Source of the DNA: an uncultured Chitinophagales bacterium
GTDB taxonomy: Bacteria; Bacteroidota; Bacteroidia; Chitinophagales; CAZNGA01
Length of the DNA stretch: 64,000 nt
Direction of reading: 5' to 3'
Assembly: GCA_964572485.1 (NCBI GenBank)
Contig: CAZNGA010000003.1
Span: 9,591-73,590, forward strand
Below are positions 31,182 to 47,402 of the stretch, one piece after another. Numbering within the stretch: the stretch's first letter is position 1; each line of letters begins with the position of its first letter. The position numbers and the translations under genes were made by a program. The notes under the pieces were generated by a model. That model was not told the origin of the DNA and did no database searches. It saw only the letters and a list, made by a program, of their open reading frames with translations.

Positions 31182-31225
31182 AAATATATTTTTAAGTAGA
31201 TTCAGTTTTCCAATTTGTTCTATTT

Positions 31226-31318
31226 CTTACATACGTAAGGGACCAGTAACAATTCGATTTAATTTGACCAAACCTATGTACATCAAGTTAAGTGAACTTT
31301 ATTTAGGGATGAATGGAC
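31226..31318. promoter_or_regulatory. three-box upstream module of A2 (21/39 spacing)
   Basis: CTTACATACGTAAG (31226-31239), a 21-nt gap, AATTTGAC (31261-31268), a 39-nt gap, then GATGAATGGAC (31308-31318). Confidence 0.55.
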
Positions 31319-31564
31319 AAAAAAGTAAGATTAAACGGCCGAAACCTATACGATTGGCTATACCAAGACTTTACAATCCAACCTGGATATTCTGCTATAT
31401 CTATTAAGTCGATTCAAAGGGCTTAGATCAGCCACAATAAGTACCATTTACATAGGTAAGGATGATCTAGTTTTCCAATGATCTATCGATGCATGGATAC
31501 AATATAAGATCAGGTGTGACTTGGGAAATAAGTTGTGTTAGAGGGTAGTCATTGAAAGGAACAT

Positions 31565-34500
31565 TTATTTTGTAGAACCTTCTTCGCTTGTTGAGACAAC
31601 CAATTTTTGCTTGTACACAAAATTGTTACATTTTGCAACAACACAATATATGCCTGCGGTGAGCTGGCGAGCCATATCCATACATTTTATAAAGCCATCA
31701 TTTTCAGGCTTTTTCGTTATTGAATATACCTCCCTGCCTAAATGATCAAGTAATGTGATCGCCACTTCAACATCTTTGGCAAGGTTTTCAATTTCAATTC
31801 TCAAACTGACATTCTTATTGATCGGGTTTGGATAAACTCTTATCGAGGTTTGAGAAGACCTTGTAAAAATAACACTTACAATTTCAGAATATTCATAGCT
31901 ACCATTCTTGTCCACTTGTTTCAAACGATAATATGAGAGTCCGATGTAAGGATCACCATCCAGACTATAATATTTTGTTAATGTGTAACTATTTCCTACC
32001 CCACTGACTTTAATAATATCTTCAAAATCTGTTCCATTATAGCTTCTTTGTACCATGTAATAGTCATTATCAATTTCTATAGACGTAGACCATTCCAGAG
32101 CTACTTCATCAATTAATCCTTTAGCAGTAAAGCTAATAAGCTCAATGGGCAATAATGCACCGCCACCACCGGTAAAGTCTTCCTCATCCGGCTCAGTGGT
32201 TATGCCTGCAGAGGTAAACAATGTATTGCTTGGAGCGATCACAGGTTCGTAAGAGGTCCAACCCCCATCCCATCTCTGAGAGAGGAAGGTATTCTCTGAG
32301 CCAACAATATCAGCATCTACATATTGATAGGTGGCATCATAGTTTATGGCATTAACATCATGAATTTTAACTGTCCAATATCTTGTAATATACCCTGTTG
32401 ATGCCATATTAGGATGTTTAGCATCTGTCACATTCACATGCATTCCGGCAGGTTTTGAGCCTCTAAAAACTGTACCGGGATTCAAAGTGTACCAGAATGG
32501 GGAAAAATCATCTACATCCCCAACAGGGAAAAAGTAGGTCCCCAAGTTGTAGGTTCTTCTCTTAAAATCACCACCGCTATCTGCCTGCACATAACTATTT
32601 ACGTCACCACCTATTACATCCCCTCCTGCCATGATCCTGAAGTTATTGGATCCTAAAATAAGTTTACCACTGGTTAATGTCAAATTCATCGCATTCATAC
32701 CTTTTGTTATTCTAGCATTTCCAGCCAACTTGTTAATGATCACATTATAGTAATCTTTTGAATTTGGCCTTTTGACGATCTGGTTGGTAGCACCTGAATA
32801 TTCAACAGTATTATTGTAGCTATTTGCCTTAAGATCTCCGAGATAGCGGAGCAATTGGCCTTTGCAATTCAGGTAACTGCCTGCTGCATTGTCCCAAGTT
32901 GCATTTTGATTATTTGTAGTAAGGTCGCCTTCCAAAGTAATAGTACCCAAATTTGTAATTGTAATGTTACCATCCATATAAAGCGTATTTGAGGATTTGG
33001 TTAAAAACGCTGATGATAGAATTGTTTTATCGCCTCCTGTTATTCTTAACAATCCGGAATTCGCAATTTGACCGGTACCATCAATATTGGCACCAGCTCC
33101 ACTTAACAACAGTTCTCCAACACCGAGGAAAAATCCATCTATAGTTAGGTCACCTGTTACTTCCAGGTCAACGGCATTTAAACTCAGTACCCCTCCGGCT
33201 TGAATTTCAAAATGATTTACAGTTGTATTTTGAAATACATCCACTACATGAGTATTCATTATTTTTACATTGCTGCTTACTAAGGGGACACAACTACAAT
33301 TCCAGGTATTGAAATCACTCCACGCCCCTGTTTGCACGCTGATAATTGGCACATAAATATTGATCTCCATACACATAGTATCTGCAAGTCCACAGCCATT
33401 TGAGCCGATAACACATACAGCGCCAATCGCTGCAGCCCCCCAATCAATAATTGCAGTACCTGTTCCTTGCCCCGCAACTACTGCCCCTCCTACAACACTC
33501 CATGTATAATTATACCCCGGAGCTCCAACGATATTATAAGGTTCACCCAAAGTAAACTCCGAAACATTTTCTTTTCCAGTTATGTCCGTAGTACTAAAGG
33601 GATGAATATTCACCGGATAGGCAACTGAAGCACCCCTGGTACAAGAATTAGTTTCATATACTGTAACTCCCCCAACCATACCCGTATTTCCCCAGTCAAC
33701 CATGACAGCATTAGTGCCCTGACCAAATGTCACGAGGCCACCAGTAGCCATCCATGTATATGTTGACAAAGGAGTGTTAACTACAGAATATGGAATTCCA
33801 AAAGCGTTTAGACAAACGCTGTCCGCCCCTGCAATTGGAGATGTAACCGGACCTGTGCAATTGGCAGAGTCACTAAAAGCAAATTGTGCAGGAAGCATAT
33901 TAACTCCATCTCGTTTTGTTGTTTGTCCAACAGCAGATGAGTGGATGCCATTTGCAGTCCATGCGCTAGCATCATTCAATCTGGTAAGTACTCTGGTCAT
34001 TGGGATAATAGGGAAACTTGTATACCCATTTCCTGAAAACTCTACATTATAATCAAAACTTAACAATCCATTTGATGCTGAGAGGTCCCAATAACCCTCT
34101 ACAAATGTATTATTTAATGTAACTGTATTATCAAGCAAAGGTAAGCCATTTATTCCCGGTGGAGTTTCGTTATATTCAACGGTAAGTAAGCCACCTGTTA
34201 TCGCATTGAATGTTACCATAGCCGGGTAATAACTTGTTGCAATACCGATGGGAAACAAATATCCTGAGCTAAGTGTATTTACCCAACGGGCCAATCTTCC
34301 GATGATCACTCCCGAAAAGTAGGTTAGGTTTCCTTCATTGGCAATGGAAGTACCTAGGATCAGCTTCGTGGTGTCAGTGTTGATATTTCCTACCATCATT
34401 TCAAGATGGTTAATTACGGTCACTTGATTTTGCAAGATCAAATCACCCATCGGCTTTTCCACCCTTAGATGATAAAATACTTCGCCTTGATTATTAGTAA

Positions 34501-35374
34501 TTGTTTGGTCAGATAATCCATTCATGATCACTGATCCATTTGAATTGACAAAAACGCCCGTATTGAGCCAATCGCCTTTTAAATACATTGTAAACCCACC
34601 CAGGTCAAAAGTCGAACTGTAGATAACAAAATCACCGTTGATTGTGACATCAGAACCTAGGGTCTTAACCCCTGAGGCCTCCAAAAACAAGTTATAATAG
34701 GTACTTCCAATTGTATTATTGATCTGTTGACTGTCTACTCCATAATATCTTACGGTATTGCCCGGGGATGTGGCATCAAAGACACCATTTGTTTCAAATA
34801 CTGCACCCCCAATATTTAATGTTGCATTAACCCCGTTGACCCATTGTGAAGTTGGATCAACACCTGTAAGGACACTACCGATGGTTATTGTGCCTAGATT
34901 ATTAACAATTACACCTGATTTAACAGATACGATTCCAAATGCTTTTGTAAGTCTCGCTGTTGCGAGAATTGTTTTATTGCCACCGCTTAATCTTAGTTCG
35001 GCAGAATGTATGGTCCCGATTCCACCAATATTGGTTCCAATTCCTGTTAATTCAGTCCTGTCGTTTCCAACATGGTCTCCGTTTATGATATAATCGCCTG
35101 CCACTGTTAATACATATGAATTATTATTGAGGAGGCCGCCGGCATTTATGGTTACACTATTTATCATTACCGAATCAGCAAGTCTTACTTCGTGACCATT
35201 ACCAATGATCACATCATCTGTAGGTGCGGGTACACAATTACAATCCCAGGTGGTCGTATTGATCCAACTCCCACTCTGAATTGAATTTGCCACAATAGCA
35301 TGTGCGTTGATCGCAAAAAGCATTATCGCTAATAAGGATATTACCCTTTTTAGTGATTGATAAAAAGTGCTCAT
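31565..35374 (-). CDS. T9SS type-A CTD protein, tandem paralog A3
   Basis: 1269 aa with signal peptide LLAIMLFAINAHA. Openers SGSWINTTTWDCNCVP and TGAWSDFNTWNCSCVP. Two Ig-like domains, core module (YVQADSGG..FPVGD..FSPF..KHPN..ITRYW), LPIELISF domain, and CTD RVYPNPI...GIYCVV. Confidence 0.9.
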   Translation of the reverse strand: MSTFYQSLKRVISLLAIMLFAINAHAIVANSIQSGSWINTTTWDCNCVPAPTDDVIIGNGHEVRLADSVMINSVTINAGGLLNNNSYVLTVAGDYIINGDHVGNDRTELTGIGTNIGGIGTIHSAELRLSGGNKTILATARLTKAFGIVSVKSGVIVNNLGTITIGSVLTGVDPTSQWVNGVNATLNIGGAVFETNGVFDATSPGNTVRYYGVDSQQINNTIGSTYYNLFLEASGVKTLGSDVTINGDFVIYSSTFDLGGFTMYLKGDWLNTGVFVNSNGSVIMNGLSDQTITNNQGEVFYHLRVEKPMGDLILQNQVTVINHLEMMVGNINTDTTKLILGTSIANEGNLTYFSGVIIGRLARWVNTLSSGYLFPIGIATSYYPAMVTFNAITGGLLTVEYNETPPGINGLPLLDNTVTLNNTFVEGYWDLSASNGLLSFDYNVEFSGNGYTSFPIIPMTRVLTRLNDASAWTANGIHSSAVGQTTKRDGVNMLPAQFAFSDSANCTGPVTSPIAGADSVCLNAFGIPYSVVNTPLSTYTWMATGGLVTFGQGTNAVMVDWGNTGMVGGVTVYETNSCTRGASVAYPVNIHPFSTTDITGKENVSEFTLGEPYNIVGAPGYNYTWSVVGGAVVAGQGTGTAIIDWGAAAIGAVCVIGSNGCGLADTMCMEINIYVPIISVQTGAWSDFNTWNCSCVPLVSSNVKIMNTHVVDVFQNTTVNHFEIQAGGVLSLNAVDLEVTGDLTIDGFFLGVGELLLSGAGANIDGTGQIANSGLLRITGGDKTILSSAFLTKSSNTLYMDGNITITNLGTITLEGDLTTNNQNATWDNAAGSYLNCKGQLLRYLGDLKANSYNNTVEYSGATNQIVKRPNSKDYYNVIINKLAGNARITKGMNAMNLTLTSGKLILGSNNFRIMAGGDVIGGDVNSYVQADSGGDFKRRTYNLGTYFFPVGDVDDFSPFWYTLNPGTVFRGSKPAGMHVNVTDAKHPNMASTGYITRYWTVKIHDVNAINYDATYQYVDADIVGSENTFLSQRWDGGWTSYEPVIAPSNTLFTSAGITTEPDEEDFTGGGGALLPIELISFTAKGLIDEVALEWSTSIEIDNDYYMVQRSYNGTDFEDIIKVSGVGNSYTLTKYYSLDGDPYIGLSYYRLKQVDKNGSYEYSEIVSVIFTRSSQTSIRVYPNPINKNVSLRIEIENLAKDVEVAITLLDHLGREVYSITKKPENDGFIKCMDMARQLTAGIYCVVAKCNNFVYKQKLVVSTSEEGSTK

Positions 35375-35397
35375 AGTTTTCCCATTTAATACTATTT

Positions 35398-35469
35398 CTT
35401 ACATACGCGAACATTCCGGATAAATCCGAGTAAATTTGACGGAAGTGGTGGTAATTTCGATGAATGGAC
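35398..35469. promoter_or_regulatory. three-box upstream module of A3 (21/18 spacing)
   Basis: CTTACATACGCGAA (35398-35411, right half degenerate), a 21-nt gap, AATTTGAC (35433-35440), an 18-nt gap, then GATGAATGGAC (35459-35469). TAAATTTG at 35431-35438 matches TAnnTTTG on the plus strand. Confidence 0.55.
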
Positions 35470-35767
35470 CTATTCCTATGGTTAATAGCCTATAAGGTTG
35501 GATAAGGCACTTAAGCTCAATGACTGCAAGGTATTAAGGCAGTACATCATCACTTCAATACTCTTATACATAATAGGTAAGCACAGGGGAAGGGCCTACT
35601 AATGATCACTTCGGATCTGATACACAAGATAAATATCGCGGACTAAATTAGAAGTAGGTGTATTTGTAATATTTGAAACTTAGGGTAAGTACAATACAAA
35701 AAAATGCCCACATCGATTCACCTTCAGGTAGGATGCAGACATTTAAAGTTTTAATATGCTTTGTAGG

Positions 35768-38296
35768 TTATTGCTTGGCAATTGAAGAAGAGGAATTGCC
35801 TGAAACGACGATTTTTTGATAATAATAATTATTGTTATTGCTTCCATAGACAAAATATACGCCAGGTTTTAATTTGCTATTAATTACAAGCGTTTGAAAC
35901 ACCTTTTTATCAGTTGGCATCATAACTTTAGTATAGATATGTTTTCCTGATTGATCAATCAAATTTACAAGGACCTCTTTTTGAGAATCAAAACCATCAA
36001 ATTCAATATTAAAAGGTTGACCTGCAATAACAGGGTTTGGATAAATCTTTATGCCCGGCAGATCAATATGGTTCATATTGACAGATACCGGTGAAAAGTA
36101 TTTGTAATATCCATCAAAATCGGTTTGCTTCAATCGATAATAACTAATGCCGTAATAAGGAGTTTGATCGGTAAAAGTATAATTAGTTGAAATATATGAA
36201 GTTCCTTGTCCATAAACTTGTCCGATCTCTTCATAAACAACACCATCATCCGAATGCTCAAGTGTAAAGTAATCATTATTGATCTCAACTGCTGTCGACC
36301 AGGTCAGTGATACTTTATGGCCTACTATTTCAGCATTAAATCCAAGCAGTTCTATTGGTAAAATCGATCCGGCACCTCCACCTGTAAATCCATCGTTGGC
36401 AGGGATCTCACTGATACCTGTAGTATTGGATAGTGTATTTGTTGGTAGAGTAGCAGAATTATATGATGCCCAGGCACTTCCATCCCATCTTATCCCTAAG
36501 AGGTTGCTCTCGGATCCTACAATATCTGCATTTACATACACCGATTTATAGGTAAAGTTAATTGCCGAGAATCCACCACTATTTACATTCCATACTCTGG
36601 TGATATGAGCAGCGCCTGCATTTATATTAGGATGTTTTTCATCAGTGATATTTACGGACATGAAATCACCTCCGCCAAATGTGGTTCCTCCAATCAACTC
36701 TACCCAAAAAGGGGAATATTCATTATTATCCCCTACCGGATAATTGAATGGATTATTGAGTGCATCCATATTTTTGATCATTACACCTGCATTATCTGCT
36801 TGCACATAACTTGAAGCACTTTCATTGGACGATGTGGCATTGACGTCCATAGTCATATCATTTGACCCTAATACGATATCCCCAAGAGTAAGATCGAGGG
36901 TACGAGAAACTGTGATATCTGTATTCAATGATACATCACCACTTGAATTATTGATGGTCAGGTCATAATAGGTTTCACTAACACCATTGACAGTTTGGGC
37001 CGCTGCGCCATCGAATGTCATCATAGCACTTTGCTCATTGAAGGTACCATTGTCTGTCCAGTCACCTGCAAGAGTGATACTATAGTTGTTGGCAACATCT
37101 GCATCCAAAGTAGTGGAAGCTACTATCAACAGGTCGCCATCTACATTAATGTTTCCTACAAGTGTCTTTGTTGCTCCTCCTGAAAGTGTTATGTTGCCAT
37201 AGGGCTCACTATTTGATGGATTGGGAACACTTTGTGCACTAGTGGCAGCAAAATTCACTGTACTGTTAACATGGATATTATGATATGCAGTACTCGATGT
37301 TTGCAACATACCTCCTGTGGCATCTGTGGTTGTAGAATAATAAGTGGCGCCATCGGCAATTTCAAAAACCTTCCCATTCTTCAATTCAATACTGAATCCG
37401 CCGGAGTTCATTTGTCCGCTTTGGATTCGGATGCTGTCATCAACTCTATTCTTTACATCGGAGATACTAATATTTGCATCTAAAGTTACACCTGCCGCAT
37501 TATTAATTTCTATATCTCCATACAGCCACAAATTAGTGAATGAATTTCCATAATCGATCATGGATAGGGTTTGTGGTGATGTACCGTTGAAATTCACTAC
37601 TGTATTCACCTCACAATCCAGATCGCCATAGTTACCGGCTGCGCTTCGGTCAAAATTTCCTGCAATATTCAATATCCCAAAATCATTCATATTGATCTTT
37701 GAATTTCCCACTTGAGCTCCGGTATATATAATATCACCTCCAACTGTGCATATCGCATTTCCTTGAATTTTGAGTTCCGCTTTTTGATTACCATCTGTCC
37801 ACAGTAATACATCACCGACTACGGTCAATGTGCCATCTTCCTTCACATCAACTTTAGCATCATCCTGAGTATGATATGCTTTTAAAATCAAATCTCTTCC
37901 AATGGACACAGTTCCAGGGCTGGCAGTTTGCCCTAGTATCTCTATTAATGCCTTATGTTTGTAGTTGACCCCTCTTAATAGAACACCATTGGTTACAGTG
38001 AGGTCGCCATTATTATCTATAATTATCCTGGAATCCTTAGCGGAGCCACACATCACATGAATAGAATCGCAAGTTTCAGTTGAATTGACAGTAACAATAT
38101 ATCCCCCCTCAATTACAGCGATATCCCCACTCCCCGGGACAGATGCTCCTGAACCACCACCTGAAGTTGCTGACCAGGTGCCGGTACTGCTCCAATTACC
38201 GGTAGCCACTGAATAGCGTGTGGCTGCCTGGAGAAACATTGTGCAAAAGAAGATGATCAAGGTGATCAAAAAGAGAATAGTAGAGATCTTTTTCAT
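35768..38296 (-). CDS. T9SS type-A CTD protein, tandem paralog B1 (single module)
   Basis: The ORF extends to 38404. The ATG at 38296 gives signal peptide MKKISTILFLITLIIFFCTMFLQA. Opener TGNWSSTGTWSATSGGGSGASVPGSGD. Core YVQADNAG..YPVGD..YSPF..KHPN..ITRVW. LPIELLGF domain. CTD KIYPNPV...GVYFVY. Confidence 0.85.
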   Translation of the reverse strand: MKKISTILFLITLIIFFCTMFLQAATRYSVATGNWSSTGTWSATSGGGSGASVPGSGDIAVIEGGYIVTVNSTETCDSIHVMCGSAKDSRIIIDNNGDLTVTNGVLLRGVNYKHKALIEILGQTASPGTVSIGRDLILKAYHTQDDAKVDVKEDGTLTVVGDVLLWTDGNQKAELKIQGNAICTVGGDIIYTGAQVGNSKINMNDFGILNIAGNFDRSAAGNYGDLDCEVNTVVNFNGTSPQTLSMIDYGNSFTNLWLYGDIEINNAAGVTLDANISISDVKNRVDDSIRIQSGQMNSGGFSIELKNGKVFEIADGATYYSTTTDATGGMLQTSSTAYHNIHVNSTVNFAATSAQSVPNPSNSEPYGNITLSGGATKTLVGNINVDGDLLIVASTTLDADVANNYSITLAGDWTDNGTFNEQSAMMTFDGAAAQTVNGVSETYYDLTINNSSGDVSLNTDITVSRTLDLTLGDIVLGSNDMTMDVNATSSNESASSYVQADNAGVMIKNMDALNNPFNYPVGDNNEYSPFWVELIGGTTFGGGDFMSVNITDEKHPNINAGAAHITRVWNVNSGGFSAINFTYKSVYVNADIVGSESNLLGIRWDGSAWASYNSATLPTNTLSNTTGISEIPANDGFTGGGAGSILPIELLGFNAEIVGHKVSLTWSTAVEINNDYFTLEHSDDGVVYEEIGQVYGQGTSYISTNYTFTDQTPYYGISYYRLKQTDFDGYYKYFSPVSVNMNHIDLPGIKIYPNPVIAGQPFNIEFDGFDSQKEVLVNLIDQSGKHIYTKVMMPTDKKVFQTLVINSKLKPGVYFVYGSNNNNYYYQKIVVSGNSSSSIAKQ

Positions 38297-38447
38297 AATT
38301 GTTGCTTTGTTATTATAGTTTACGTTTTGACCAAATCCTTGTTTCGAATTGGCCTCCTGACTTATTAGTCGGTTTACTATCGCTGATAAATGGTCGTTAT
38401 TCATAAATAAATGGTTGGTATTATATAGTTACTATACTATCAACTCT

Positions 38448-38519
38448 CTTACTTACGTAAGTTTGTCTGCATAATCTGAGAAATTTTGACCGATGTAATG
38501 GAATATTCGACGAATGGAC
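38448..38519. promoter_or_regulatory. three-box upstream module of B1 (21/18 spacing)
   Basis: CTTACTTACGTAAG (38448-38461, containing the perfect 12-bp palindrome ACTTACGTAAGT), a 21-nt gap, ATTTTGAC (38483-38490), an 18-nt gap, then GACGAATGGAC (38509-38519). Confidence 0.6.
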
Positions 38520-38658
38520 CTATTATGGTGTTGAATAACTTTGTAGAATAGATAAGCTGCCTAATAGACAATAGAACTTTGAGTATGCAAATACATTTAT
38601 AGGGTCAGGAACCATTGGGGTATATTATCAAGGGGTAAAGTTACTGCCAACAATACAA

Positions 38659-38916
38659 CTACTGCTTAGCATAGGATGAAAAGGAAGAGGAGCTGCTTAC
38701 AACCACAATCTTTTGTTTATATAGCTGTTGATCGCTGGCTCCAATAACGAAATAGATACCAGGGTTTAAAGTATTGCCAATATCCTTGAATTTACAATTC
38801 ACCACTCTTTGGAATGGGGAGGCCGGGATCCGGGATATTGAAAATTGCCCATAAAATTCAACGTGCATTAAGGTTCCTGTATTTCTTGTCAGAGGATTAG
38901 CTACTGTGAATAGCAT
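38659..38916 (-). pseudogene. CTD-only relic of a family paralog
   Basis: The 85-aa ORF holds only a degenerate T9SS CTD: ANPLTRNTGTLMHVEF...NPGIYFVIGASDQQLYKQKIVVVSSSSSFSSYAKQ. The Ser-rich ...AKQ tail matches B1. No signal peptide or passenger domain. Confidence 0.6.
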
Positions 38917-39024
38917 GTGAAGAAGGTGGAAATTTCTTAAAGATCTCAGATAAGCTTAAATGTACCCTCTCTTTCTTTTTTTTCTCTGCCTGAAAGTACT
39001 TGATAAATTTGTAAGTCTTCATAT

Positions 39025-39639
39025 TCAAAATAGTTGTATTTCCCAAAATAACCAGCCAAACATTAGAAACCTCAATATACGCACGCTGGCAAATGCCATA
39101 TATCTATTTAATGGATAATCCATAGAACCTGATAAGATGCTGATAATAGAAAAAGGGATGGGTGTAAATGCTGCTATAGCGATATACATGCCTCCCCAGG
39201 ACAAGATATTCTTCTTGTATTTATTACTGAATCCGTTCAAGTACTTTGCTAAATATTTAATTTGGCATAACTTTTTTCCAAGCAACAATGAGACGATCCC
39301 ACCAAAATAGGAAAGAAATGCTAAAAGGAACAAAAAGATCACAGGGTGAGAACATTGCAAGGACCAAAGGATAAAAAAGTCTTGAGGTAATATGCCAAGA
39401 AAGGACTCTGAAATAAAGAAAACACCAAATACGATTGGAGGGAGCACTGCCAAATGAATGCTGGTTTCAAAATTAGTAGTTGAAAAAAAGTATTTAGAGG
39501 TTGCAAGAGCTCCTACTATCAAAATAATATATAGGAACCCATGAAGTATATTTCGTGATAAGATCTTGTACTCGATATTATTTAATGGAAGGCAAATGGC
39601 TCTTATCTTTGTAATTGAATTCTTGCTAAATTGCTTCAT
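39025..39639 (-). CDS. small polytopic membrane protein, YqaA/DedA (VTT-domain)-like
   Basis: 204 aa, about 5 TM segments. The LPQDFF..., YFGG....LG and AAFTPIPFSIISILSG patterns resemble the YqaA/DedA family. It starts 33 nt downstream of the paralog C stop on the same strand. Confidence 0.6.
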   Translation of the reverse strand: MKQFSKNSITKIRAICLPLNNIEYKILSRNILHGFLYIILIVGALATSKYFFSTTNFETSIHLAVLPPIVFGVFFISESFLGILPQDFFILWSLQCSHPVIFLFLLAFLSYFGGIVSLLLGKKLCQIKYLAKYLNGFSNKYKKNILSWGGMYIAIAAFTPIPFSIISILSGSMDYPLNRYMAFASVRILRFLMFGWLFWEIQLF

Positions 39640-39672
39640 GAGTGTGTATCTTGAGATTTTACAGAGATAAGA

Positions 39673-41730
39673 TCAATTACGAGCATAATTACTTGATCCA
39701 TTGCCACCTGATATGACCAACTTCTGCTGGCATATTTCGTTCTTACTGCTCGCGACTATCAGATATACCCCCGGAGCAAGGTTGTTCATTAGATCGATCC
39801 CTGTGAGTACGCCATTACTTTCAGTGATCATCACTTTAGAATATACCTGCTGTCCCGTATGGTTATAAAGAACCACCAACACTTCTTCATTAGCTTTCTT
39901 ATCGCTTATTTCCAGAGTTAATTCCTGTCCAGTTAATAGAGGATTAGGATAGATCTTCATGGTTGAAGTTGTATTAGTGATCTGTACAGCCACAGGATCA
40001 AAATATTCAAACCTCTGATCGTAGTCGGTTTGTTTGAGTCTATAGTAGCTGGTACCAGATAGTGGCGTATTGTCAATATAAGAATAGTTGTTTTCTGTGT
40101 ATGATGTCCCCATTCCTTCCACTTCCGCAATTACTTCAAAGTTGATCCCATCATTAGACCTTTCTACAGTATAATAGTCATTATTGATCTCAACTGACGA
40201 GGTCCAATTGATCTCAACTGATCTTCCAACAACTTCTGCACCCATATCCAACAATTCGATAGGGAGTGCCATTCCATTCCCCGCAGAGAAGTCATGGTTT
40301 GAAGGTATCTCTGATATACCACTGCTACTGGTAAGTGTATTGGTGACTGTATTTACATTATTGTATTGAGTCCAGGCAACCCCATTCCATCTGGCTGTAT
40401 TCAGGGTGGCCTCAGTGCCTGTAACGTCTACTTCATTATAGATATAGCTCACATCGTAATCAATAGAACCAATACCACTTGCATCTATGGTCCAATATCT
40501 TGTGATCAGATCACCCGGATCTAAGTTGGGATGGAGACCATCGGTTATATTACAAGTTATAGTAGCTGTACCCCCTGAACTGCTATTTTTTGTAAAGGTA
40601 AATGGTGAATATTCGTTCACATCTCCTACTAAAAAGTCAATTGAGCTATTGTTGTTAAATAGCTTTACCATTTTCCCACCATTCGAAGAGGTAACATCTA
40701 CATAACTATTGATACTGCCACCAGCTGTAGTACCTGATGTTGCAATGATCAGGTCATCTGCGCCAACTTTGATCACCCCATCAGACATGGTAAGTGTACC
40801 ATTTACTGTGACATCTCCCTCTAAGGTTAATTGTGGAGAAGTACCATAGCTATTGTTTATTGTAACATTCTCGTATGTAAAACCATCTGTGCCTGCTCCC
40901 TCATCTTCTCCGATCACTTGAGCTATAGAGGCATCAAATGTGATCGTTGAATTATCCTGCATATCAAATAATCCGTAGTTATTAGGAGTTGCCTGTCGTA
41001 TAACATCACCGGCAAGATTGATGCGTGTGTCATCCAGCACTTTAAAAACAACTCTGCTTTGAGCACTCGCAGTTATATAGATATCTCCAGACACATCTAA
41101 AAATGAGTTATCCTCAAATTTGCCATACACATCTTGTGAGCCCCCGCTGTAATCCATGGTGAGGTCTCCATCTACAATAAGTTGGCCATCATCTTTTACT
41201 GACAGTGATATTCTCTTTGTCCCGCCATCACTGTCAAGGGTCATATCCCCATTTACTCTCATTATTGAATTGTCATTTACCTTTATTTTTATCACATCTG
41301 AACCGCCATTTCTATAAGCCAGGAAATCACCTTGTACGGTAAGAATACCGCCACCCATTCCACCGGAATTTTCCTCCAGGTGCAAATGTGCTTCCCTCGA
41401 GCCGCCATTTGCATCTAAAAGCATATCTCCGGCTACGGTTAATGAATAGCCATCTTCAATTTCTAATTTACCATCATTGCTTCCTGAACCAAGAAGTTGA
41501 ACATATGCACAAGCCATATTTGCGTTATTAACTTCGATCTCATATCCCTGGATATAAGCGCTATCGCCTGCAACTGGGTAAGCGCCGGCTGCAGCCCCTC
41601 CAAAACCGGTTGTTGACCAGTTATTGTTGTCATCCCAGATACCCCCACTAATAGAATAGTAAATAGTAGCACCTGCGAAATTCATCGCTGCAAAAAAAGT
41701 AAGTCCGATTAATAAAATAAAGCGTTTCAT
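39673..41730 (-). CDS. T9SS type-A CTD protein, tandem paralog C
   Basis: The ORF extends to 41814. The ATG at 41730 gives MKRFILLIGLTFFAAMNFAGA. Opener SGGIWDDNNNWSTTGFGGAAAGAYPVAGD. Core SYVDV..FLVGD..YSPF..LHPN..ITRYW. LPIELLDM domain. CTD KIYPNPL...GVYLIV. Confidence 0.85.
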   Translation of the reverse strand: MKRFILLIGLTFFAAMNFAGATIYYSISGGIWDDNNNWSTTGFGGAAAGAYPVAGDSAYIQGYEIEVNNANMACAYVQLLGSGSNDGKLEIEDGYSLTVAGDMLLDANGGSREAHLHLEENSGGMGGGILTVQGDFLAYRNGGSDVIKIKVNDNSIMRVNGDMTLDSDGGTKRISLSVKDDGQLIVDGDLTMDYSGGSQDVYGKFEDNSFLDVSGDIYITASAQSRVVFKVLDDTRINLAGDVIRQATPNNYGLFDMQDNSTITFDASIAQVIGEDEGAGTDGFTYENVTINNSYGTSPQLTLEGDVTVNGTLTMSDGVIKVGADDLIIATSGTTAGGSINSYVDVTSSNGGKMVKLFNNNSSIDFLVGDVNEYSPFTFTKNSSSGGTATITCNITDGLHPNLDPGDLITRYWTIDASGIGSIDYDVSYIYNEVDVTGTEATLNTARWNGVAWTQYNNVNTVTNTLTSSSGISEIPSNHDFSAGNGMALPIELLDMGAEVVGRSVEINWTSSVEINNDYYTVERSNDGINFEVIAEVEGMGTSYTENNYSYIDNTPLSGTSYYRLKQTDYDQRFEYFDPVAVQITNTTSTMKIYPNPLLTGQELTLEISDKKANEEVLVVLYNHTGQQVYSKVMITESNGVLTGIDLMNNLAPGVYLIVASSKNEICQQKLVISGGNGSSNYARN

Positions 41731-41776
41731 GATTAATGATTTAGTTGTGTTCAAATCGTCATTTTTTCTCATAATA

Positions 41777-41790
41777 GTTACCCGTGTAAG
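41777..41790. promoter_or_regulatory. box1 palindrome upstream of paralog C (proximal copy)
   Basis: GTTAC-CCGT-GTAAG, 46 nt upstream of the ATG at 41730. A degenerate copy, CTGTC-ATAA-GTAAG, lies at 41859-41872. Confidence 0.45.
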
Positions 41791-41915
41791 TTTTTGTTTG
41801 TTTTCTGATAGCAATATATATCTTATCGCTTCTAAATAAAAGCCATTTGCTTCAGGACACTGTCATAAGTAAGATTTACAGTTATTTCTGGTAATCAATG
41901 AAGAAATGAAGGGTT

Positions 41916-41929
41916 ACTTACAGGTGTAA
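41916..41929. promoter_or_regulatory. box1 palindrome upstream of paralog C (distal copy)
   Basis: CTTAC-AGGT-GTAAG with perfect half-sites. Confidence 0.45.
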
Positions 41930-41993
41930 GAAATAACAGCTTTTGGTTTATTCTCTTAATAGATCATTACAGCAAAATGAATAGAATTGCAGT

Positions 41994-42111: not shown

Positions 42112-44604
42112 TTATTTTATTATATCGCCAGAGATGATCAATCTCTGTTGATAGATGCTTTTATTACTGCTACCAATCACAAAATATACACCTGGTATCA
42201 ACTTATTATTTAAATCTATGGCAGTAGTAATTTCATCACCTTGAATCAATAGCACCTTCGAATAGACCTCTCTCCCATATTGATCTACAAGCACTACCAT
42301 CACTTCTTCATCAGGGGTAAATCCTTGCAGAATAACCTGCAATGACTGGCTTGGCAACACAGGATTTGGGTATAACTTAATAGTAGGTTTATCAACACTT
42401 ACAAAGTGTACAGCTATCGGTGCAAAATATTCAAATTGATGATCCACATCTGTTTGCTTCAATCTATAGTAGGAAGTCCCTGTAATTGGCTCAGAGTCAA
42501 CATATTTATAATTAGTGCTTTGATAGGTAGTCCCCTGGCCATTAATTGTTGATATAACTTCATAATCAAAACCATCATTCGATCTTTCAATTGTAAAATA
42601 ATCATTATTGATTTCAACAGCTGTACTCCAATATAATACAACCCTGTCTGTCTCTACATCTGCCCTAAAACTCAGCAATTCTATAGGTAAAGCACCTCCA
42701 CTGCCGCCTGTGAAATCATGGTTACTGGGAATAGTAGTGATCCCTATAGAATTGGAGAGTGTATTGATCGCAGGATTTACAGCATTATATGCACTCCATG
42801 AACTACCATTCCATTTGGCAGCTTTCAGGTTGGTTTCTGTGCCTACAATATCTTCGTCTAAATACACTGCCTTGTAACCATATTTAATAGCTGAAAAGCC
42901 CCCACTATTCATTCTCCAAAACCTTGTAATGTGGTCCCCTTCTGCCATATTTGCATGTTTTGCATCAGTCACCTTTATTGAAATATTATCACCCCCACCA
43001 AAAGAAGTTCCCCCTTGGAGCTTAAACCAAAATGGAGAAAATTCATCATTATCGCCAACCGGAAAGTCAAATGGCGTAGTGATCCCATTAAAATTCTTGG
43101 TCATTACTCCTTCATTATCTGCCTGAACATAACTGGAAGCACCTCCGTTAGATATTGTGGCATCAACATCCATTGTCAGATCATTAGCCCCCAGGACAAT
43201 ATCTCCACTAGAAAGGTTAAGGGTTCTGGTCACTGTAATATCAGCACTCAATGAAACATCACCACTACTATTATCGACGGTAAGATCATAAAATTCTTCA
43301 CTATTGCCATTTATTGCTTGAGGAGATGAGCCATCAAATGTCACTTCACCATTTCTCTCAATAAATGTACCATTGTCTGTCCAGTTTCCTGCGAGATCTA
43401 TAGTATAATCACTTCCATTCCCTACATCCAATGCAGCATTGGCAGTAATCAACAGATCTCCATTTATATCTACATTATCAGTAAGTGTTTTGGTAGCCCC
43501 TCCTGATAGGGTTACGTTACCATAGGATTCATTATTTGAGGGATCAGGGACATTCTGGGCACTGGTAGCAGCAAAATTTACAGTACTGTTGACATGGATA
43601 CTATGAGATGCACTAGTTGAAGTTTGTAGCATTCCACCTGTACCATCTGTGGTGGTAGTAGAATATGTTGTAGTGCCAGCCATCTCGAAGAACTTTCCAT
43701 TTGCCAATTCAATACTGTAACCGCCAGAATTCAGCTGGCCGGTCATTACACGAATATCATCTAATACTGTATTCGTCTCATCTGATTGAGAGATATCTGC
43801 ATCTAAAGTTACTCCTGCAGTATTATTGATCCTCACCTCTCCATAGGTCCATTCATTTGTAACAGCACCCCCATAATTGATCATTGAGAACACTTGAGCT
43901 GATGTGCCATTGAAGTTTATAGTTGTAGTCTCTTCACAATCAAGGTCCCCATAATTACCTGATGCACTTCTGTCAAAATTACCTGCCAGATTCATTAATC
44001 CATTGTCATTCATATTGATCTTTAAACTTCCTTTCTCAGCACCTTCATATAATACATCCCCCAGTATTGTGCATACTCCATCATCTTCTAATTTAAGTTC
44101 TGCTTCCTTATCACCATTTGCCCAGAGGGATACATTGCCGGTTATGGTTAATGATCCATCTTCTTTTACTTTTACCTTTGCTTCATCTTGATCATCATAA
44201 GCCATAAGGTTCAAATTGGAGCCAATTGACATTGTTCCAGGGAATCCACTCGAACCGGATATCTCAATTTCAACTTTATTTTTATTACTTTGGGTACTTA
44301 ATAAAGTACCATATATAACTGTCAGGTCTCCATTATCCTCAATGAGCAATTTAGAGTCATCCCCTGATCCGGAGCGCATATAGATACTATCACACTGCTC
44401 AATAGAATTTACGGTTACTTCTTCATCTTCAATAACCACAATATCTCCAACGCCGGGTACAGAAGCTCCGGATGAACCACCTGAAGTAGTTGACCAGGTA
44501 CTTGTATTATCCCAATCACCTGAATTTACCGAGTAGCGAGTCCCTGCCTGCAAACAAAAGTAGGTCATCATTATCAGACATACAGTAGTAAATAAAGTTT
44601 TCAT
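42112..44604 (-). CDS. T9SS type-A CTD protein, tandem paralog B2
   Basis: 830 aa with signal peptide MKTLFTTVCLIMMTYFCLQA. Opener SGDWDNTSTWSTTSGGSSGASVPGVGD. Core YVQADNEG..FPVGD..FSPF..KHAN..ITRFW. LPIELLSF domain. CTD KLYPNPV...GVYFVIG. Confidence 0.9.
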   Translation of the reverse strand: MKTLFTTVCLIMMTYFCLQAGTRYSVNSGDWDNTSTWSTTSGGSSGASVPGVGDIVVIEDEEVTVNSIEQCDSIYMRSGSGDDSKLLIEDNGDLTVIYGTLLSTQSNKNKVEIEISGSSGFPGTMSIGSNLNLMAYDDQDEAKVKVKEDGSLTITGNVSLWANGDKEAELKLEDDGVCTILGDVLYEGAEKGSLKINMNDNGLMNLAGNFDRSASGNYGDLDCEETTTINFNGTSAQVFSMINYGGAVTNEWTYGEVRINNTAGVTLDADISQSDETNTVLDDIRVMTGQLNSGGYSIELANGKFFEMAGTTTYSTTTTDGTGGMLQTSTSASHSIHVNSTVNFAATSAQNVPDPSNNESYGNVTLSGGATKTLTDNVDINGDLLITANAALDVGNGSDYTIDLAGNWTDNGTFIERNGEVTFDGSSPQAINGNSEEFYDLTVDNSSGDVSLSADITVTRTLNLSSGDIVLGANDLTMDVDATISNGGASSYVQADNEGVMTKNFNGITTPFDFPVGDNDEFSPFWFKLQGGTSFGGGDNISIKVTDAKHANMAEGDHITRFWRMNSGGFSAIKYGYKAVYLDEDIVGTETNLKAAKWNGSSWSAYNAVNPAINTLSNSIGITTIPSNHDFTGGSGGALPIELLSFRADVETDRVVLYWSTAVEINNDYFTIERSNDGFDYEVISTINGQGTTYQSTNYKYVDSEPITGTSYYRLKQTDVDHQFEYFAPIAVHFVSVDKPTIKLYPNPVLPSQSLQVILQGFTPDEEVMVVLVDQYGREVYSKVLLIQGDEITTAIDLNNKLIPGVYFVIGSSNKSIYQQRLIISGDIIK

Positions 44605-44714: not shown

Positions 44715-44816
44715 TTTATTTCAATTAAATAGGGAATTCAATCCTTTTTTTCGACCAATGGATATAATACATTTAAAGGGCGGATCTATTGGCTTACCTG
44801 ACCATGGATATAATAT

Positions 44817-44891: not shown

Positions 44892-47402
44892 TTAATTTGA
44901 AGAAGAATTACTGGAGCTGGAAATAATCAACCTTTTTTTATGTATCGTTCTTTCATCGCTTCCAATAACAAAGTAAAGTCCGGGTGGAATTTTACCATAA
45001 AGGTCAATAGCTGTAAGCACCTGGCTACTCTCCATCATTATCACTTTTGAAAAAACCTCTCTGCCAAATTGATCCATCAGCAAGACAACCACTTCTTTAT
45101 ATGGTTCAAATCCTTCTAAGACCACATTCAAAGATTGGTTGGGCAGCACAGGGTTTGGGTACAATTCAATGGATGTATTATTTGAATATTCTAATACCAC
45201 TGTTACCGGTGCAAAATATTCGAAATGATGATCATAATCAGCTTGCTTCAGCCTGTAATATGAAGTCCCTTGGTAGGGTGAAACATCTACATATTTGTAG
45301 TCAGTACTTTGATATGTGGTTCCTTGCCCTTCAATAGTAACCAAGATCTCGAAATCAATACCATCATTAGAGCGCTCTATAGTAAAATAGTCATTATTGA
45401 TCTCAACAGCAGTTGACCAGGTGAGTAGCACTTCAGAGCCAACAACTTCAGCATTAAATCCTAATAACTCTATTGGCAGTATTGCACCTGCACCACCTCC
45501 GGTAAATCCATCGTTGGCAGGAATTTCACTGATCCCTGTAGTATTGGACAGGGTATTTGTTGAGGCAGAAACCGAATTGTATGATGTCCAGGCACTTCCA
45601 TCCCATCTTATCCCTAAGAGGTTGCTCTCGGAGCCTACAATATCTGCATCCACATACACTGATTTATAGGTAAAGTTAATTGCCGAGAAACCACCACTGT
45701 TTACATTCCATACTCTGGTGATATGAGCAGTACCTGGGTTAATCTGAACATGCTTGGAGTCGATTATATTTACAGAGATAAAATCACTTCCACCAAATGT
45801 GGTTCCACCGATCAACTCTACCCAAAAAGGAGAATATTCATTATTATCCCCTACCGGATAATTGAATGGATTATTGAGTGCATCCATATTTTTGATCATT
45901 ACACCTGCATTATCTGCTTGCACATAACTTGAAGCACTTTCATTGGACGATGTGGCATTGACGTCCATAGTCATATCATTTGACCCTAATACGATATCCC
46001 CAAGAGTAAGATCGAGGGTACGAGAAACTGTGATATCTGTATTCAATGATACATCACCACTTGAATTATTGATGGTCAGGTCATAATAGGTTTCATTAAC
46101 GCCGTTGATTGTTTGAGCTGAAGATCCATCAAATGTTACTTTTCCATTTCGCTCATTATAGGTTCCATTATCTGTCCAGTTTCCTGCCAGATCTATATCA
46201 TAATCATTTCCGTTATCTGCATCCAGGGTAGAAGTTGCAGTAATCAAAAGGTCGCCATTCACATCAATATTATCTACAAGTGTTTTGGTAGCCCCACCTG
46301 ACATGGTTACATTACCATAGGGTTCACTATTTGAGGGATCAGGGACATTTTGCGCACTGGTGGCTGCAAAATTCACCATACTATTTACATGGATATCATG
46401 AGAGGCAGAAGTAGAGGTCTCCAACATCCCACCAGTAGCATCTGTGGTAGTGGTATAATAAGTTGTTGCACTTGCAATCTCAAAAACCTTTCCATTTCCC
46501 AGTTCTATACTATATCCTCCTGAGTTCATCTGACCGCTCAGGATACGAATATCATCCAAGACTGTATTATTAACATCTGATTGAGAGATATCTGCATCTA
46601 AAGTTACTCCTGCAGTATTATTGATCCGTACTTCCCCATATGTCCATACATCGGTAGCCGATCCACCGTAGTCAATCATCGAAAGAGTTTGTGCAGATGA
46701 GCCATTGTAATTTACGACAGTGTTCAATTCACAATCCAACTCCCCATAATTTCCAGAGGCACTCCTGTCAAAATTGCCTGCAATGTTCAATACTGCGTTG
46801 TCCTTAACTCTCAATCTTGGCTTACCTAGCTCAGCCCCCTCAAATATAATATCTCCCACTACAATAGCTGTAGCATCATTTTCTACATTAAATTCAGCTT
46901 TTTTATCGCCATCGGTCCATAAAAACACATCCCCGCTTACGGTCAATGAACCATCATCAATTACATTAACTTCTGCATCATCTTCTCCATCAAAACCCCT
47001 TATGATCAAATCTCCTCCAATAGACATCGTCCCCGGAGTTCCGCTTGTGCCAAATATCTCAAGAGTTGCTTTATTACCATTATTTTCTGTTGTGAGAAAC
47101 ACACCATTCGTAACGGTAAGATCACCATCATCATCAACTAATAGTTTACTATCATTACCAGAGCCGGAAATAATATAAATACTATCACATTGTTCCACAG
47201 AATTTACAGTTACTGTATATTCGTCTTCAATTATTACCACATCACCACTACCGGGAACAGAAGCCCCTGAAGATCCTCCGGAACTTGTTGCCCAGGTGTT
47301 CGTATTATCCCAATCACCATTGTTGACGGAGTAACGATTAGCTGCATCAACATTGTACTCTATAACACTGATGATGAATAGTGTTGTAAATAAATACTTC
47401 AT
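44892..47402 (-). CDS. T9SS type-A CTD protein, tandem paralog B3
   Basis: 836 aa with signal peptide MKYLFTTLFIISVIEYNVDA. Opener NGDWDNTNTWATSSGGSSGASVPGSGD. An 88-aa stretch is identical to B1. LPIELLGF domain. CTD ELYPNPV...GLYFVIG. Confidence 0.9.
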   Translation of the reverse strand: MKYLFTTLFIISVIEYNVDAANRYSVNNGDWDNTNTWATSSGGSSGASVPGSGDVVIIEDEYTVTVNSVEQCDSIYIISGSGNDSKLLVDDDGDLTVTNGVFLTTENNGNKATLEIFGTSGTPGTMSIGGDLIIRGFDGEDDAEVNVIDDGSLTVSGDVFLWTDGDKKAEFNVENDATAIVVGDIIFEGAELGKPRLRVKDNAVLNIAGNFDRSASGNYGELDCELNTVVNYNGSSAQTLSMIDYGGSATDVWTYGEVRINNTAGVTLDADISQSDVNNTVLDDIRILSGQMNSGGYSIELGNGKVFEIASATTYYTTTTDATGGMLETSTSASHDIHVNSMVNFAATSAQNVPDPSNSEPYGNVTMSGGATKTLVDNIDVNGDLLITATSTLDADNGNDYDIDLAGNWTDNGTYNERNGKVTFDGSSAQTINGVNETYYDLTINNSSGDVSLNTDITVSRTLDLTLGDIVLGSNDMTMDVNATSSNESASSYVQADNAGVMIKNMDALNNPFNYPVGDNNEYSPFWVELIGGTTFGGSDFISVNIIDSKHVQINPGTAHITRVWNVNSGGFSAINFTYKSVYVDADIVGSESNLLGIRWDGSAWTSYNSVSASTNTLSNTTGISEIPANDGFTGGGAGAILPIELLGFNAEVVGSEVLLTWSTAVEINNDYFTIERSNDGIDFEILVTIEGQGTTYQSTDYKYVDVSPYQGTSYYRLKQADYDHHFEYFAPVTVVLEYSNNTSIELYPNPVLPNQSLNVVLEGFEPYKEVVVLLMDQFGREVFSKVIMMESSQVLTAIDLYGKIPPGLYFVIGSDERTIHKKRLIISSSSNSSSN

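What the first reader, a model, noticed from the sequence alone, without database searches (positions are those of the whole stretch)
36714..36977. 264-bp tract 100% identical between paralogs B1 and B3, 9.1 kb apart: recent gene conversion
Positions 36714-36977 (B1) and 45832-46095 (B3) read identically base for base, with a constant offset of 9118. They encode the identical 88-aa stretch ETYYDLTINNSSGDVSLNTDITVSRTLDLTLGDIVLGSNDMTMDVNATSSNESASSYVQADNAGVMIKNMDALNNPFNYPVGDNNEYSPFWVELIGGTTFGG.

Immediately outside the tract the two genes drop to visibly lower identity. For example, 36610-36660 versus 45725-45780 is strongly diverged. B2, which lies between them, differs throughout.

A sharp-edged identical patch in otherwise diverged paralogs is the signature of non-reciprocal recombination. 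This means the array is actively exchanging cassettes.
Basis: seen in the sequence. Interest (0 to 1): 0.7.

Follow-up and report, generated by a model that had tools for sequence, protein, structure and literature searches.

The report
Gene conversion between surface-protein paralogs
Two of four neighbouring, otherwise strongly diverged genes for secreted surface proteins in an uncultured Bacteroidota bacterium share a perfectly identical 264-base stretch, which is best explained as one gene recently copying a piece of itself into the other, a real but ordinary process in bacterial gene families.

Summary
Window 36714-36977 and 45832-46095 are identical base for base: 264 nt at offset 9118, or 284/285 if extended to 36693. 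Both copies lie in frame in two minus-strand paralogs, B1 (35768-38296/38404) and B3 (44892-47402). These encode Type IX secretion system (T9SS) type-A cargo proteins with a predicted beta-solenoid followed by beta-sandwich domains.

Outside the tract, B1 and B3 are 55-73% identical and synonymous sites are saturated (dS above 1). Inside it, 0 of about 55 synonymous sites differ. There are 70 consecutive informative sites with B1=B3; the maximum in 10,000 permutations was 15.

Three contigs from a separate JGI assembly reproduce B1's copy and both B3 junctions. The two B3-side contigs break inside the tract, as expected for a true repeat.

Non-reciprocal ectopic recombination (gene conversion) is well supported.
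- Only the 5' edge (in gene orientation) is sharp. On the 3' side, about 340 bp stays at 86% identity, pointing to older events.
- "Actively exchanging cassettes" is not shown. All copies are full-length genes, both assemblies carry the same mosaic, and the neighbouring A family shows no significant tract.

This is a clean new example of a known process. Interest is low to moderate.

The parts
36714..36977 (-). B1 copy of the 264-nt perfectly identical tract (B1 residues about 441-528, counted from the MKK start)
   Evidence: Exact identity to 45832-46095. The same sequence, with both B1-specific flanks, is present in JGI contig L001 apart from 3 single-base insertions.
45832..46095 (-). B3 copy of the tract (B3 residues 437-524)
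   Evidence: JGI contig L118 runs from B3-specific sequence 62 nt into the tract and ends at 46034. JGI contig L119 starts at 45875, 44 nt before the tract's 3' end, and continues into B3-specific sequence. The central 158 nt (45876-46033) has no independent cover.
35768..38404 (-). Gene B1. The ORF is 878 aa from the first ATG. The likely true start is MKK at 38296, giving 842 aa.
   Evidence: ORF list; T9SS type-A sorting domain TIGR04183/PF18962 at the C-terminus; alignment with B2 and B3.
44892..47402 (-). Gene B3 (836 aa)
   Evidence: The AlphaFold2 model has mean pLDDT 89.4 and is all-beta, with short repeated strands to about residue 490 and then longer sandwich-like strands. A CTD-type Pfam match covers residues 747-827, but it is below the curated cut-off for B3.
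42112..44604 (-). Gene B2 (830 aa). An unconverted paralog used as the reference.
   Evidence: It is 70-79% identical to B1/B3 across the tract.
39673..41814 (-). Gene Bx (713 aa). A shorter, more diverged member of the family, about 50% nucleotide identity.
36270..36713 (-). Zone of intermediate B1-B3 divergence on the 3' side of the tract (partner 45388-45831). Interpreted as the remains of one or more older conversions.
   Evidence: 83% identity overall and 85.7% for 36270-36612. dS is 0.67 against above 1 in the flanks. Further significant runs of 12, 11 and 17 concordant sites occur here.
36613..36692 (-). 80-bp dip to 70% identity inside that zone (partner 45731-45810). Here B1 agrees with B2 and B3 is the odd one out.
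   Evidence: The motif reads NITDEKHPNI in B1 and NIIDSKHVQI in B3.
43779..43832 (-). 54-nt exact match between B2 and B3 (partner 46574-46627). It is the core of a roughly 120-nt patch at 89-91% identity and is a second, smaller conversion-like tract.
   Evidence: (14 concordant sites; 0 of 10,000 permutations reach it).

Best explanation
B1, Bx, B2 and B3 are old tandem paralogs encoding T9SS-exported surface proteins. Homologous recombination between two of them, B1 and B3, lying 9.1 kb apart in direct orientation, copied a patch of about 264-285 bp from one gene into the other without reciprocal exchange. This is ectopic gene conversion, and it erased all differences, synonymous ones included.

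The event is very recent relative to the age of the paralogs. No synonymous site differs, which puts the 95% upper bound on dS near 0.05, against 1.2-2.4 elsewhere.

The tract sits at the 5' end of a longer zone, about 700 bp in total, where B1 and B3 are already unusually similar because of earlier conversion(s).

Inferred mechanism:
- That older zone supplies exact runs of 20-45 nt that can seed RecA-type strand invasion.
- The heteroduplex extended towards the 5' end of the gene and stopped where it reached 70%-identical sequence. This would explain one sharp edge and one graded edge.

Direction is weakly suggested to be B3 to B1. The tract's distance to B2 (pS 0.60, pN 0.18) matches the typical B2-B3 distance rather than the B1-B2 distance.

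The net effect is local homogenisation and mosaicism of the region spanning the end of the solenoid and the start of the next beta domain. Nothing indicates a dedicated variation machine.

What is shown: the identity, its statistical significance, homogenisation of synonymous sites, the phylogenetic switch, two breakpoints, and reproduction in a second assembly. What is inferred: RecA dependence, seeding in the older zone, the direction, and the number of older events.
For: - Exact identity and its bounds.
- Sliding-window identity for all pairs. B1-B3 runs at 56-74% in the N-terminal part, 100% in the tract, 75-95% afterwards, and 50-63% in the C-terminal part.
- Permutation test. Observed run of 70 concordant sites, maximum 15 in 10,000 permutations.
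- Nei-Gojobori estimates by segment. In the tract, Sd=0 of S=55 for B1-B3, while B2 against either copy gives dS 1.2 in the same codons.
- Informative-site pattern. B2=B3 is the majority pattern in the flanks; B1=B3 is exclusive in the tract.
- No other paralog pair has an exact match longer than 54 nt.
- Separate JGI assembly of sample 3300002231:
  - L001 spans the whole of B1, including the tract.
  - L118 ends 62 nt inside the B3 copy.
  - L119 starts 44 nt before the end of the B3 copy.
  - Both B3 junctions are therefore real, and the assembler broke exactly where a true repeat would make it break.
- No RNA family, RNA structure signal or overlapping ORF accounts for the identity.
Against: - All sequence comes from metagenome assemblies, apparently of the same population and possibly from the same reads.
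- The central 158 nt of the B3 copy has no independent cover. Bubble-popping or polishing could have turned near-identity into perfect identity.
- No reads, coverage data or long reads could be examined.
- No orthologous array from a related strain or species was found. The event therefore cannot be dated or polarised against an outgroup, and the direction estimate rests on a difference of about 2 standard errors.
- Non-reciprocity is inferred from the outcome, not observed.
Confidence: 0.87

Rival explanations
1. Assembly artefact. The identity was created or exaggerated by the assembler or polisher, through a chimeric path across a shared k-mer, collapse of two similar variants, or consensus polishing with mis-mapped paralogous reads.
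For: - The source is a metagenome-derived contig. The exact B3 protein is known only from one 84-kb NCBI contig.
- The JGI contigs carry clustered single-base insertion errors in the B1 tract: 3 of 8 within 264 bp, binomial p=3e-4. They also carry 4 of 6 in the homologous part of B2. Consensus building was clearly disturbed in this region.
- The central 158 nt of the B3 copy is not independently covered.
Against: - A differently assembled data set shows B1-specific flanks on both sides of the tract.
- The same data set shows B3-specific flanks joined to 62 nt and 44 nt of tract sequence.
- The flanks just outside the 5' edge share no exact run of 15 nt or more at this offset, so a de Bruijn graph could not jump between copies there.
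- Contig breaks inside the tract on both B3 sides are what a genuine repeat produces. If B3's centre differed, it would have been assembled through.
Confidence: 0.05
2. Programmed cassette-type variation. The array would be a dedicated antigenic or phase-variation system in which segments are frequently shuffled between copies, in the manner of pilE/pilS or vlsE.
For: - At least three conversion-like tracts of different ages occur in one family of surface-exposed proteins.
- A shared palindromic upstream motif and three stand-alone LytTR regulator genes lie next to the array.
Against: - There are no silent, truncated or promoterless donor copies. Each gene is complete, with its own upstream region, signal peptide and sorting domain.
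- No recombinase or reverse transcriptase appears among the ORFs of 100 aa or more that were scanned.
- Both assemblies carry the same mosaic.
- Most of each gene is saturated at synonymous sites, so exchange is rare on the evolutionary scale.
Confidence: 0.05
3. Single unequal crossover or recent partial duplication produced a chimeric gene, rather than a patch-wise conversion.
For: 264 bp of identity in direct repeats 9.1 kb apart is a good substrate for unequal crossover, and tandem arrays do grow and shrink that way.
Against: - A single crossover gives one switch point. Here B1-B3 similarity is low, then 100%, then intermediate, then low, which means at least two and probably four or more switch points.
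- The array keeps four distinct genes with distinct flanks.
Confidence: 0.02
4. The nucleotide identity is maintained by selection on an embedded functional element, such as an RNA, a binding site or an overlapping gene, or by extreme purifying selection on the protein.
For: The protein segment is moderately conserved across the family.
Against: - B2 differs from both copies at 60% of synonymous sites in the very same codons.
- There is no Rfam match.
- Folding energy is no better than that of shuffled sequence on either strand: z = 0.37 and -0.11.
- All other reading frames contain stop codons.
Confidence: 0.01

Closest known systems
Ectopic gene conversion between duplicated bacterial genes, e.g. 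tufA/tufB in Salmonella (Paulsson et al. 2017, PMC5485169)
   Same: Non-reciprocal transfer between two same-genome copies, producing a patch with two end points and homogenising synonymous sites. Tracts are limited by sequence divergence and mismatch repair.
   Different: The tuf copies are about 99% identical and are kept uniform along the whole gene. Here the partners are about 70% identical with saturated synonymous sites, so conversion is confined to a short island. It probably depends on homology left by earlier events. No experimental system exists for this uncultured organism.
Shared identical adhesin-domain repeats in the Porphyromonas gingivalis T9SS cargo genes hagA, rgpA and kgp (PMC5266723)
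   Same: The same phylum and the same export route (T9SS C-terminal domain cargo). In both, surface proteins carry segments that are identical between paralogous genes and that break automated assembly. The paper separately invokes gene conversion and allelic exchange for diversity in other P. gingivalis surface proteins.
   Different: The protein family is unrelated (cleaved adhesin domains, against the beta-solenoid/beta-sandwich protein here). The gingipain genes are dispersed rather than arranged as a tandem array, and their repeats are longer and multiple. Strain-to-strain variation is documented for them, but none is documented here.
Cassette-based antigenic variation (Neisseria pilE/pilS, Borrelia vlsE). 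The comparison rests on general knowledge and was not tested against a database.
   Same: Segmental, non-reciprocal copying between paralogous sequences that encode surface proteins.
   Different: Those systems have one expression site plus silent partial cassettes, specialised cis elements, and high-frequency switching that is visible within populations. None of these features is present or shown here.

Membership tests
Interlocus (ectopic) gene conversion tract | A stretch of identity between paralogs that is significantly longer than their background divergence allows | tested here: met
   264/264 identical against a 71% background. The observed run is 70 concordant polymorphic sites; the maximum in 10,000 permutations is 15.
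Interlocus (ectopic) gene conversion tract | Synonymous sites are homogenised as well, so the similarity is not explained by protein-level selection | tested here: met
   In the tract, 0 of about 55 synonymous sites differ. In the same codons, B2 against either copy gives dS 1.2. In the flanks, B1-B3 dS is 1.4-2.4.
Interlocus (ectopic) gene conversion tract | Phylogenetic incongruence between tract and flanks, with two or more breakpoints | tested here: met
   B2=B3 sites dominate the N- and C-terminal parts, while B1=B3 is exclusive in the tract. The identity profile is low, then 100%, then intermediate, then low.
Interlocus (ectopic) gene conversion tract | Both copies really exist in the genome and are not an assembly product | tested here: met
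   JGI contigs L001, L118 and L119 reproduce the B1 copy and both B3 junctions. The central 158 nt of the B3 copy is not independently covered, and no reads were available.
Interlocus (ectopic) gene conversion tract | Non-reciprocity and dependence on homologous recombination (the RecA pathway) | not testable with these tools
   This needs ancestral or sister genotypes, or genetics in the organism.
Programmed cassette antigenic-variation system | Silent, partial donor cassettes feeding a single expression locus | tested here: not met
   B1, Bx, B2 and B3 are all complete ORFs with an N-terminal signal sequence and a C-terminal sorting domain. Each has its own upstream region.
Programmed cassette antigenic-variation system | Alternative mosaics coexisting in the population | tested here: inconclusive
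   Two assemblies show the same mosaic. Consensus contigs cannot reveal minority variants.
Diversity-generating retroelement (TR/VR pair) | Reverse transcriptase nearby, and repeat copies that differ at adenine positions | tested here: not met
   The copies are identical, with no A-specific mismatches. No reverse transcriptase domain appears in the window ORFs that were scanned.
T9SS type-A cargo protein (the genes that carry the tract) | C-terminal sorting domain (TIGR04183 / PF18962) | tested here: met
   B1 scores 24.7 bits, Bx 34.0 and B2 23.6 against a cut-off of 23. B3 scores 18.2, below the cut-off, but aligns along the whole domain with its paralogs.
T9SS type-A cargo protein (the genes that carry the tract) | N-terminal Sec signal peptide, and a T9SS machinery encoded in the genome | tested here: inconclusive
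   A hydrophobic N-terminal helix (residues 2-16) precedes an A-A/A-T motif. No signal-peptide predictor was available and no T9SS core genes lie in the window. Many other cargo genes carrying a C-terminal sorting domain are present.

The most novel reading that the evidence does not exclude
The B array, together with the A array, may be a co-regulated set of interchangeable surface beta-solenoid proteins. The shared CTTAC-N4-GTAAG upstream palindrome and the three adjacent stand-alone LytTR regulators would provide the co-regulation. Recurrent segmental conversion, focused on the junction between the solenoid end and the beta-sandwich, would be used to reshuffle a binding surface. That would make it a contingency or variation system for T9SS cargo in free-living Bacteroidota, built from expressed paralogs rather than silent cassettes.
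Probability: 0.06. Interest if true: 0.55.

Novelty: new member of a known kind. Interest (0 to 1): 0.25.

Why it matters
This is a clean, statistically unambiguous example of ectopic gene conversion acting between paralogs that are otherwise saturated at synonymous sites. It occurs in a poorly known family of T9SS surface proteins from an uncultured Bacteroidota lineage.

It shows three things:
- Short islands of homology left by earlier events can sustain further exchange between genes that are only about 70% identical.
- Trees or divergence estimates for such families will be misleading unless the tracts are masked.
- Such tracts are a predictable cause of contig breaks and consensus errors in metagenome assemblies.

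It does not reveal a new mechanism.

Tried and rejected
1. Exact-protein look-ups of B1 (both start codons), B3, B2, TsaD and one LytTR gene found no record of the source contig. The organism could not be named that way.

2. A scan of genome representatives with the B-family alignment found no relative. A scan with TsaD gave at best 63% identity, to Crocinitomicaceae, Christiangramia, Chitinophaga and Sphingobacterium. No close genome exists, so no orthologous array is available to date or polarise the event.

3. The metagenome scan returned only distant family members, with at most 44% identity over the best-matching segment. The protein search found nothing between 65% and 100% identity apart from the JGI fragments of the same population.

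4. Rfam and RNA folding of the tract on both strands gave nothing.

5. The PDB sequence search gave nothing. Foldseek on a confident model gave only weak multi-domain matches with TM-scores of 0.15 or less, to insulin-receptor L/FnIII domains, PorU, PorZ and FnIII tandems. The function of the protein beyond 'beta-solenoid surface protein' remains a prediction.

6. I looked for conversion in the neighbouring A family. None is significant after correcting for three comparisons: A1-A2 gave 25 of 3,000 permutations, and the other pairs were not significant.

7. I looked for long exact repeats in related loci from other metagenomes. A few of 60-117 nt exist. The follow-up script failed because of a file-name error. 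The one locus inspected, L003, has only a single 2,450-aa ORF listed, so the repeats may be internal to a giant gene. I did not pursue this further.

8. DGR, shufflon/invertase and overlapping-ORF explanations were considered and rejected. The copies are identical, in direct orientation and in the same frame. No reverse transcriptase or recombinase was found among the ORFs scanned, and the other frames contain stops.
Full report
OBSERVATION

With the next 20 bases included, the match is 284/285.

The coding strand is the minus strand. The tract lies in the same frame in two ORFs:
- B1, 35768-38404. The probable true start is MKK at 38296.
- B3, 44892-47402.

Protein identity continues 14 residues beyond the nucleotide-identical tract because the first differences are synonymous.

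CONTEXT

The window is chromosomal DNA of a Bacteroidota bacterium. It carries DnaG, TsaD, TamB, an Omp85-family protein, a thiolase and others. TsaD is at most 63% identical to any species representative found.

Positions 23-53 kb hold a run of minus-strand genes for T9SS cargo proteins:
- Three 'A' paralogs with G8 and PKD_6 domains plus a C-terminal sorting domain: 23048-26833, 27258-31181 and 31565-35374.
- Four 'B' paralogs: B1; Bx at 39673-41814; B2 at 42112-44604; and B3. These have no Pfam match except the type-A sorting domain.

The AlphaFold2 model of B3 has mean pLDDT 89.4. It shows, in order:
- an N-terminal signal helix;
- a long series of short beta strands, solenoid-like, to about residue 490;
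- longer-stranded beta-sandwich-like modules.

Searches place a CTD-type match at residues 747-827 (below the cut-off for B3).

Foldseek gives only weak matches, to insulin-receptor L/FnIII domains, PorU, PorZ and FnIII tandems. The PDB sequence search finds nothing.

The tract encodes B3 residues 437-524. This covers the last solenoid-type strands and the first strands of the next module. As far as secondary structure shows, it does not coincide with a discrete domain; that is an inference, not a measurement.

IDENTITY LANDSCAPE

In a codon-based alignment, overall nucleotide identity is 71% for B1-B3, 65% for B1-B2, 69% for B2-B3, and about 50% for Bx against the others.

Along the gene, B1-B3 identity runs as follows:

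| Segment | B1-B3 identity |
|---|---|
| N-terminal 1.4 kb | 56-78% |
| Tract | 100% |
| Next 20 nt after a single mismatch | identical |
| 36613-36692 (80 bp) | 70% |
| 36270-36612 | 85.7% |
| C-terminal 500 bp | about 55% |

The 5' edge in gene orientation is therefore sharp, and the 3' side is graded.

Synonymous divergence tells the same story:

| Segment | Pair | dS |
|---|---|---|
| N-terminal part | B1-B3 | 2.4 |
| C-terminal part | B1-B3 | 1.4 |
| Zone 3' of the tract | B1-B3 | 0.67 |
| Tract | B1-B3 | 0 (0 of about 55 sites) |
| Tract (same codons) | B2 vs either copy | 1.2 |

Informative sites switch from a B2=B3 majority in the flanks to 70 consecutive B1=B3 sites in the tract. Further runs of 12, 11 and 17 such sites follow downstream.

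In 10,000 permutations of polymorphic sites, the longest B1-B3 run was 15. A second, smaller tract links B2 and B3. It has a 54-nt exact match (43779-43832 = 46574-46627) inside about 120 nt at 89-91% identity, with 14 concordant sites, reached by 0 of 10,000 permutations.

No other pair among the seven paralogs shares more than 23 exact bases. The A family shows no tract that survives correction for multiple tests.

IS IT REAL?

The exact B1 protein clusters with fragments from JGI metagenome 3300002231. Three contigs of that assembly cover the array at 99.7-99.9% identity:
- L001 equals window 26861-41691. It spans all of B1 with the tract in place, apart from three single-base insertions.
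- L118 equals window 56303 down to 46034. It ends 62 nt inside the B3 copy.
- L119 equals window 45875 down to 42720. It starts 44 nt before the end of the B3 copy and runs on into B2.

Both junctions of the B3 copy, and the whole B1 copy, are therefore reproduced by a different assembly. That assembly broke on both B3 sides exactly inside the tract, which is the expected behaviour at a true repeat.

Some caveats remain:
- The central 158 nt of the B3 copy has no independent cover.
- The two assemblies may derive from the same community or the same reads.
- The JGI consensus errors cluster in this region: 3 of 8 insertions in L001 fall within the tract (p=3e-4), and 4 of 6 in L119 fall in the homologous part of B2.
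- Perfect identity, as opposed to near-identity, could in principle owe something to bubble-popping.

RIVALS

- Selection on an embedded element is excluded. B2 diverges in the same codons, there is no Rfam hit, folding shows no signal, and every alternative frame has stop codons.
- A single unequal crossover does not fit the multiple switch points.
- A DGR is excluded by perfect identity and by the absence of a reverse transcriptase among the ORFs scanned.
- A programmed cassette system is not supported. All four genes are complete, each with its own upstream region. A strong terminator-like hairpin separates B3 from B2. Both assemblies carry the same mosaic.

MECHANISM

The best-supported account is ordinary ectopic gene conversion by homologous recombination between direct-repeat paralogs 9.1 kb apart.

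At least two B1-B3 events of different age are needed. One or more older events left the zone at dS 0.67, and a very recent one produced the perfect tract. There was also one B2-B3 event.

I infer that the older zone, which contains exact runs of 20-45 nt, supplies the homology needed to start new exchanges. I also infer that the recent heteroduplex ended where it met 70%-identical DNA, giving the sharp 5' edge.

The tract's distance to B2 (pS 0.60, pN 0.18) equals the usual B2-B3 distance (0.595, 0.182) rather than the B1-B2 distance (0.674, 0.231). This weakly favours B3 as the donor, at about 2 standard errors and ignoring regional rate variation.

COMPARISON AND VERDICT

The process is the same as in the tuf genes of Salmonella (PMC5485169). 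It resembles the identical adhesin-domain segments shared by the P. gingivalis T9SS cargo genes hagA, rgpA and kgp, which also defeat automated assembly (PMC5266723).

What differs is the degree of divergence of the partners, which is about 70% with synonymous sites saturated. Conversion is therefore confined to a short island rather than homogenising whole genes.

This is a new example of a known kind. Its claims of two sharp edges and of active cassette exchange do not.

Noticed in passing
window 31226-31239, 31447-31460, 38448-38465, 41860-41873, 41917-41930, 47519-47532, 50161-50174: A palindromic motif, CTTAC-N4-GTAAG, is enriched in the window: 17 strand-wise matches with up to 2 mismatches, against 2.5 expected. 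Most matches lie in the upstream intergenic regions of the T9SS cargo paralogs A2, B1, Bx and B3 and of the 165-aa cargo ORF; others fall elsewhere (e.g. 5470, 14682). In A2, A3, B1 and one LytTR gene it is preceded by TCCATTC(G/A)TC and GGTCAAA(A)TT boxes. The TCCATTC box alone is not enriched. This may be a shared operator or promoter.
   Followed up: partly
window 47657-48019, 48156-48524, 49213-49557 (minus strand): Three tandem small genes (114-122 aa) consist of a LytTR DNA-binding domain only, with no receiver domain. They sit directly upstream of B3. A full response regulator with a LytTR domain lies at 19651-20430. These are candidate regulators of the cargo arrays.
   Followed up: no
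window 45731-45810 (B3), partner 36613-36692 (B1): Inside the older B1-B3 similarity zone, an 80-bp patch has B1 agreeing with B2 while B3 alone has diverged (NITDEKHPNI against NIIDSKHVQI). The motif is also conserved in the A family (repeat family D8). This could be lineage-specific change in B3 or a small patch imported from elsewhere.
   Followed up: partly
L001 4809-4921 (window 36887-36777); L001 1762-1928 (window 39930-39767); L119 2682-2813 (window 43196-43068): Single-base insertion errors in the JGI contigs cluster in the tract of B1, in the homologous region of B2, and in the C-terminal region of Bx. They break the genes into fragments (515 + 29 + 333 aa for B1). This suggests consensus problems where paralogous reads mix.
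   Followed up: partly
window 23048-35374 (minus strand): A second tandem family of three large T9SS cargo genes (1261-1307 aa; G8 and PKD_6 domains plus a C-terminal sorting domain) has 53-60% nucleotide identity between members. No conversion tract survives correction for three comparisons. Its C-terminal half shares motifs with the B family.
   Followed up: partly
window 38297-38404: The B1 ORF extends 36 codons upstream of the MKK start, which aligns with the starts of B2 and B3. The JGI gene call uses the long form, which is probably an over-extended start.
   Followed up: no
window 44816-44851 (minus strand): A 16-bp-stem, GC-rich hairpin lies in the 287-bp gap between B3 and B2. It looks like an intrinsic terminator, although the T-run is weak. 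It suggests that the paralogs are separate transcription units.
   Followed up: no
L003 9954-12840; L039 7675-11605; L079 7830-10073; L117 19672-20050: Some loci fetched from other metagenomes and genomes contain exact repeats of 60-117 nt at offsets of 0.3-2.2 kb. L003, L039 and L079 came from the B-family scan; L117 came from the TsaD scan and is not a B-family locus. The repeats could be internal repeats of giant genes or conversion between neighbours. This was not resolved; the follow-up script failed.
   Followed up: no
window 14308-19392 (minus strand): A 1694-aa protein carries a CHU_C (type-B) T9SS sorting domain, so both type-A and type-B cargo occur in the same neighbourhood.
   Followed up: no
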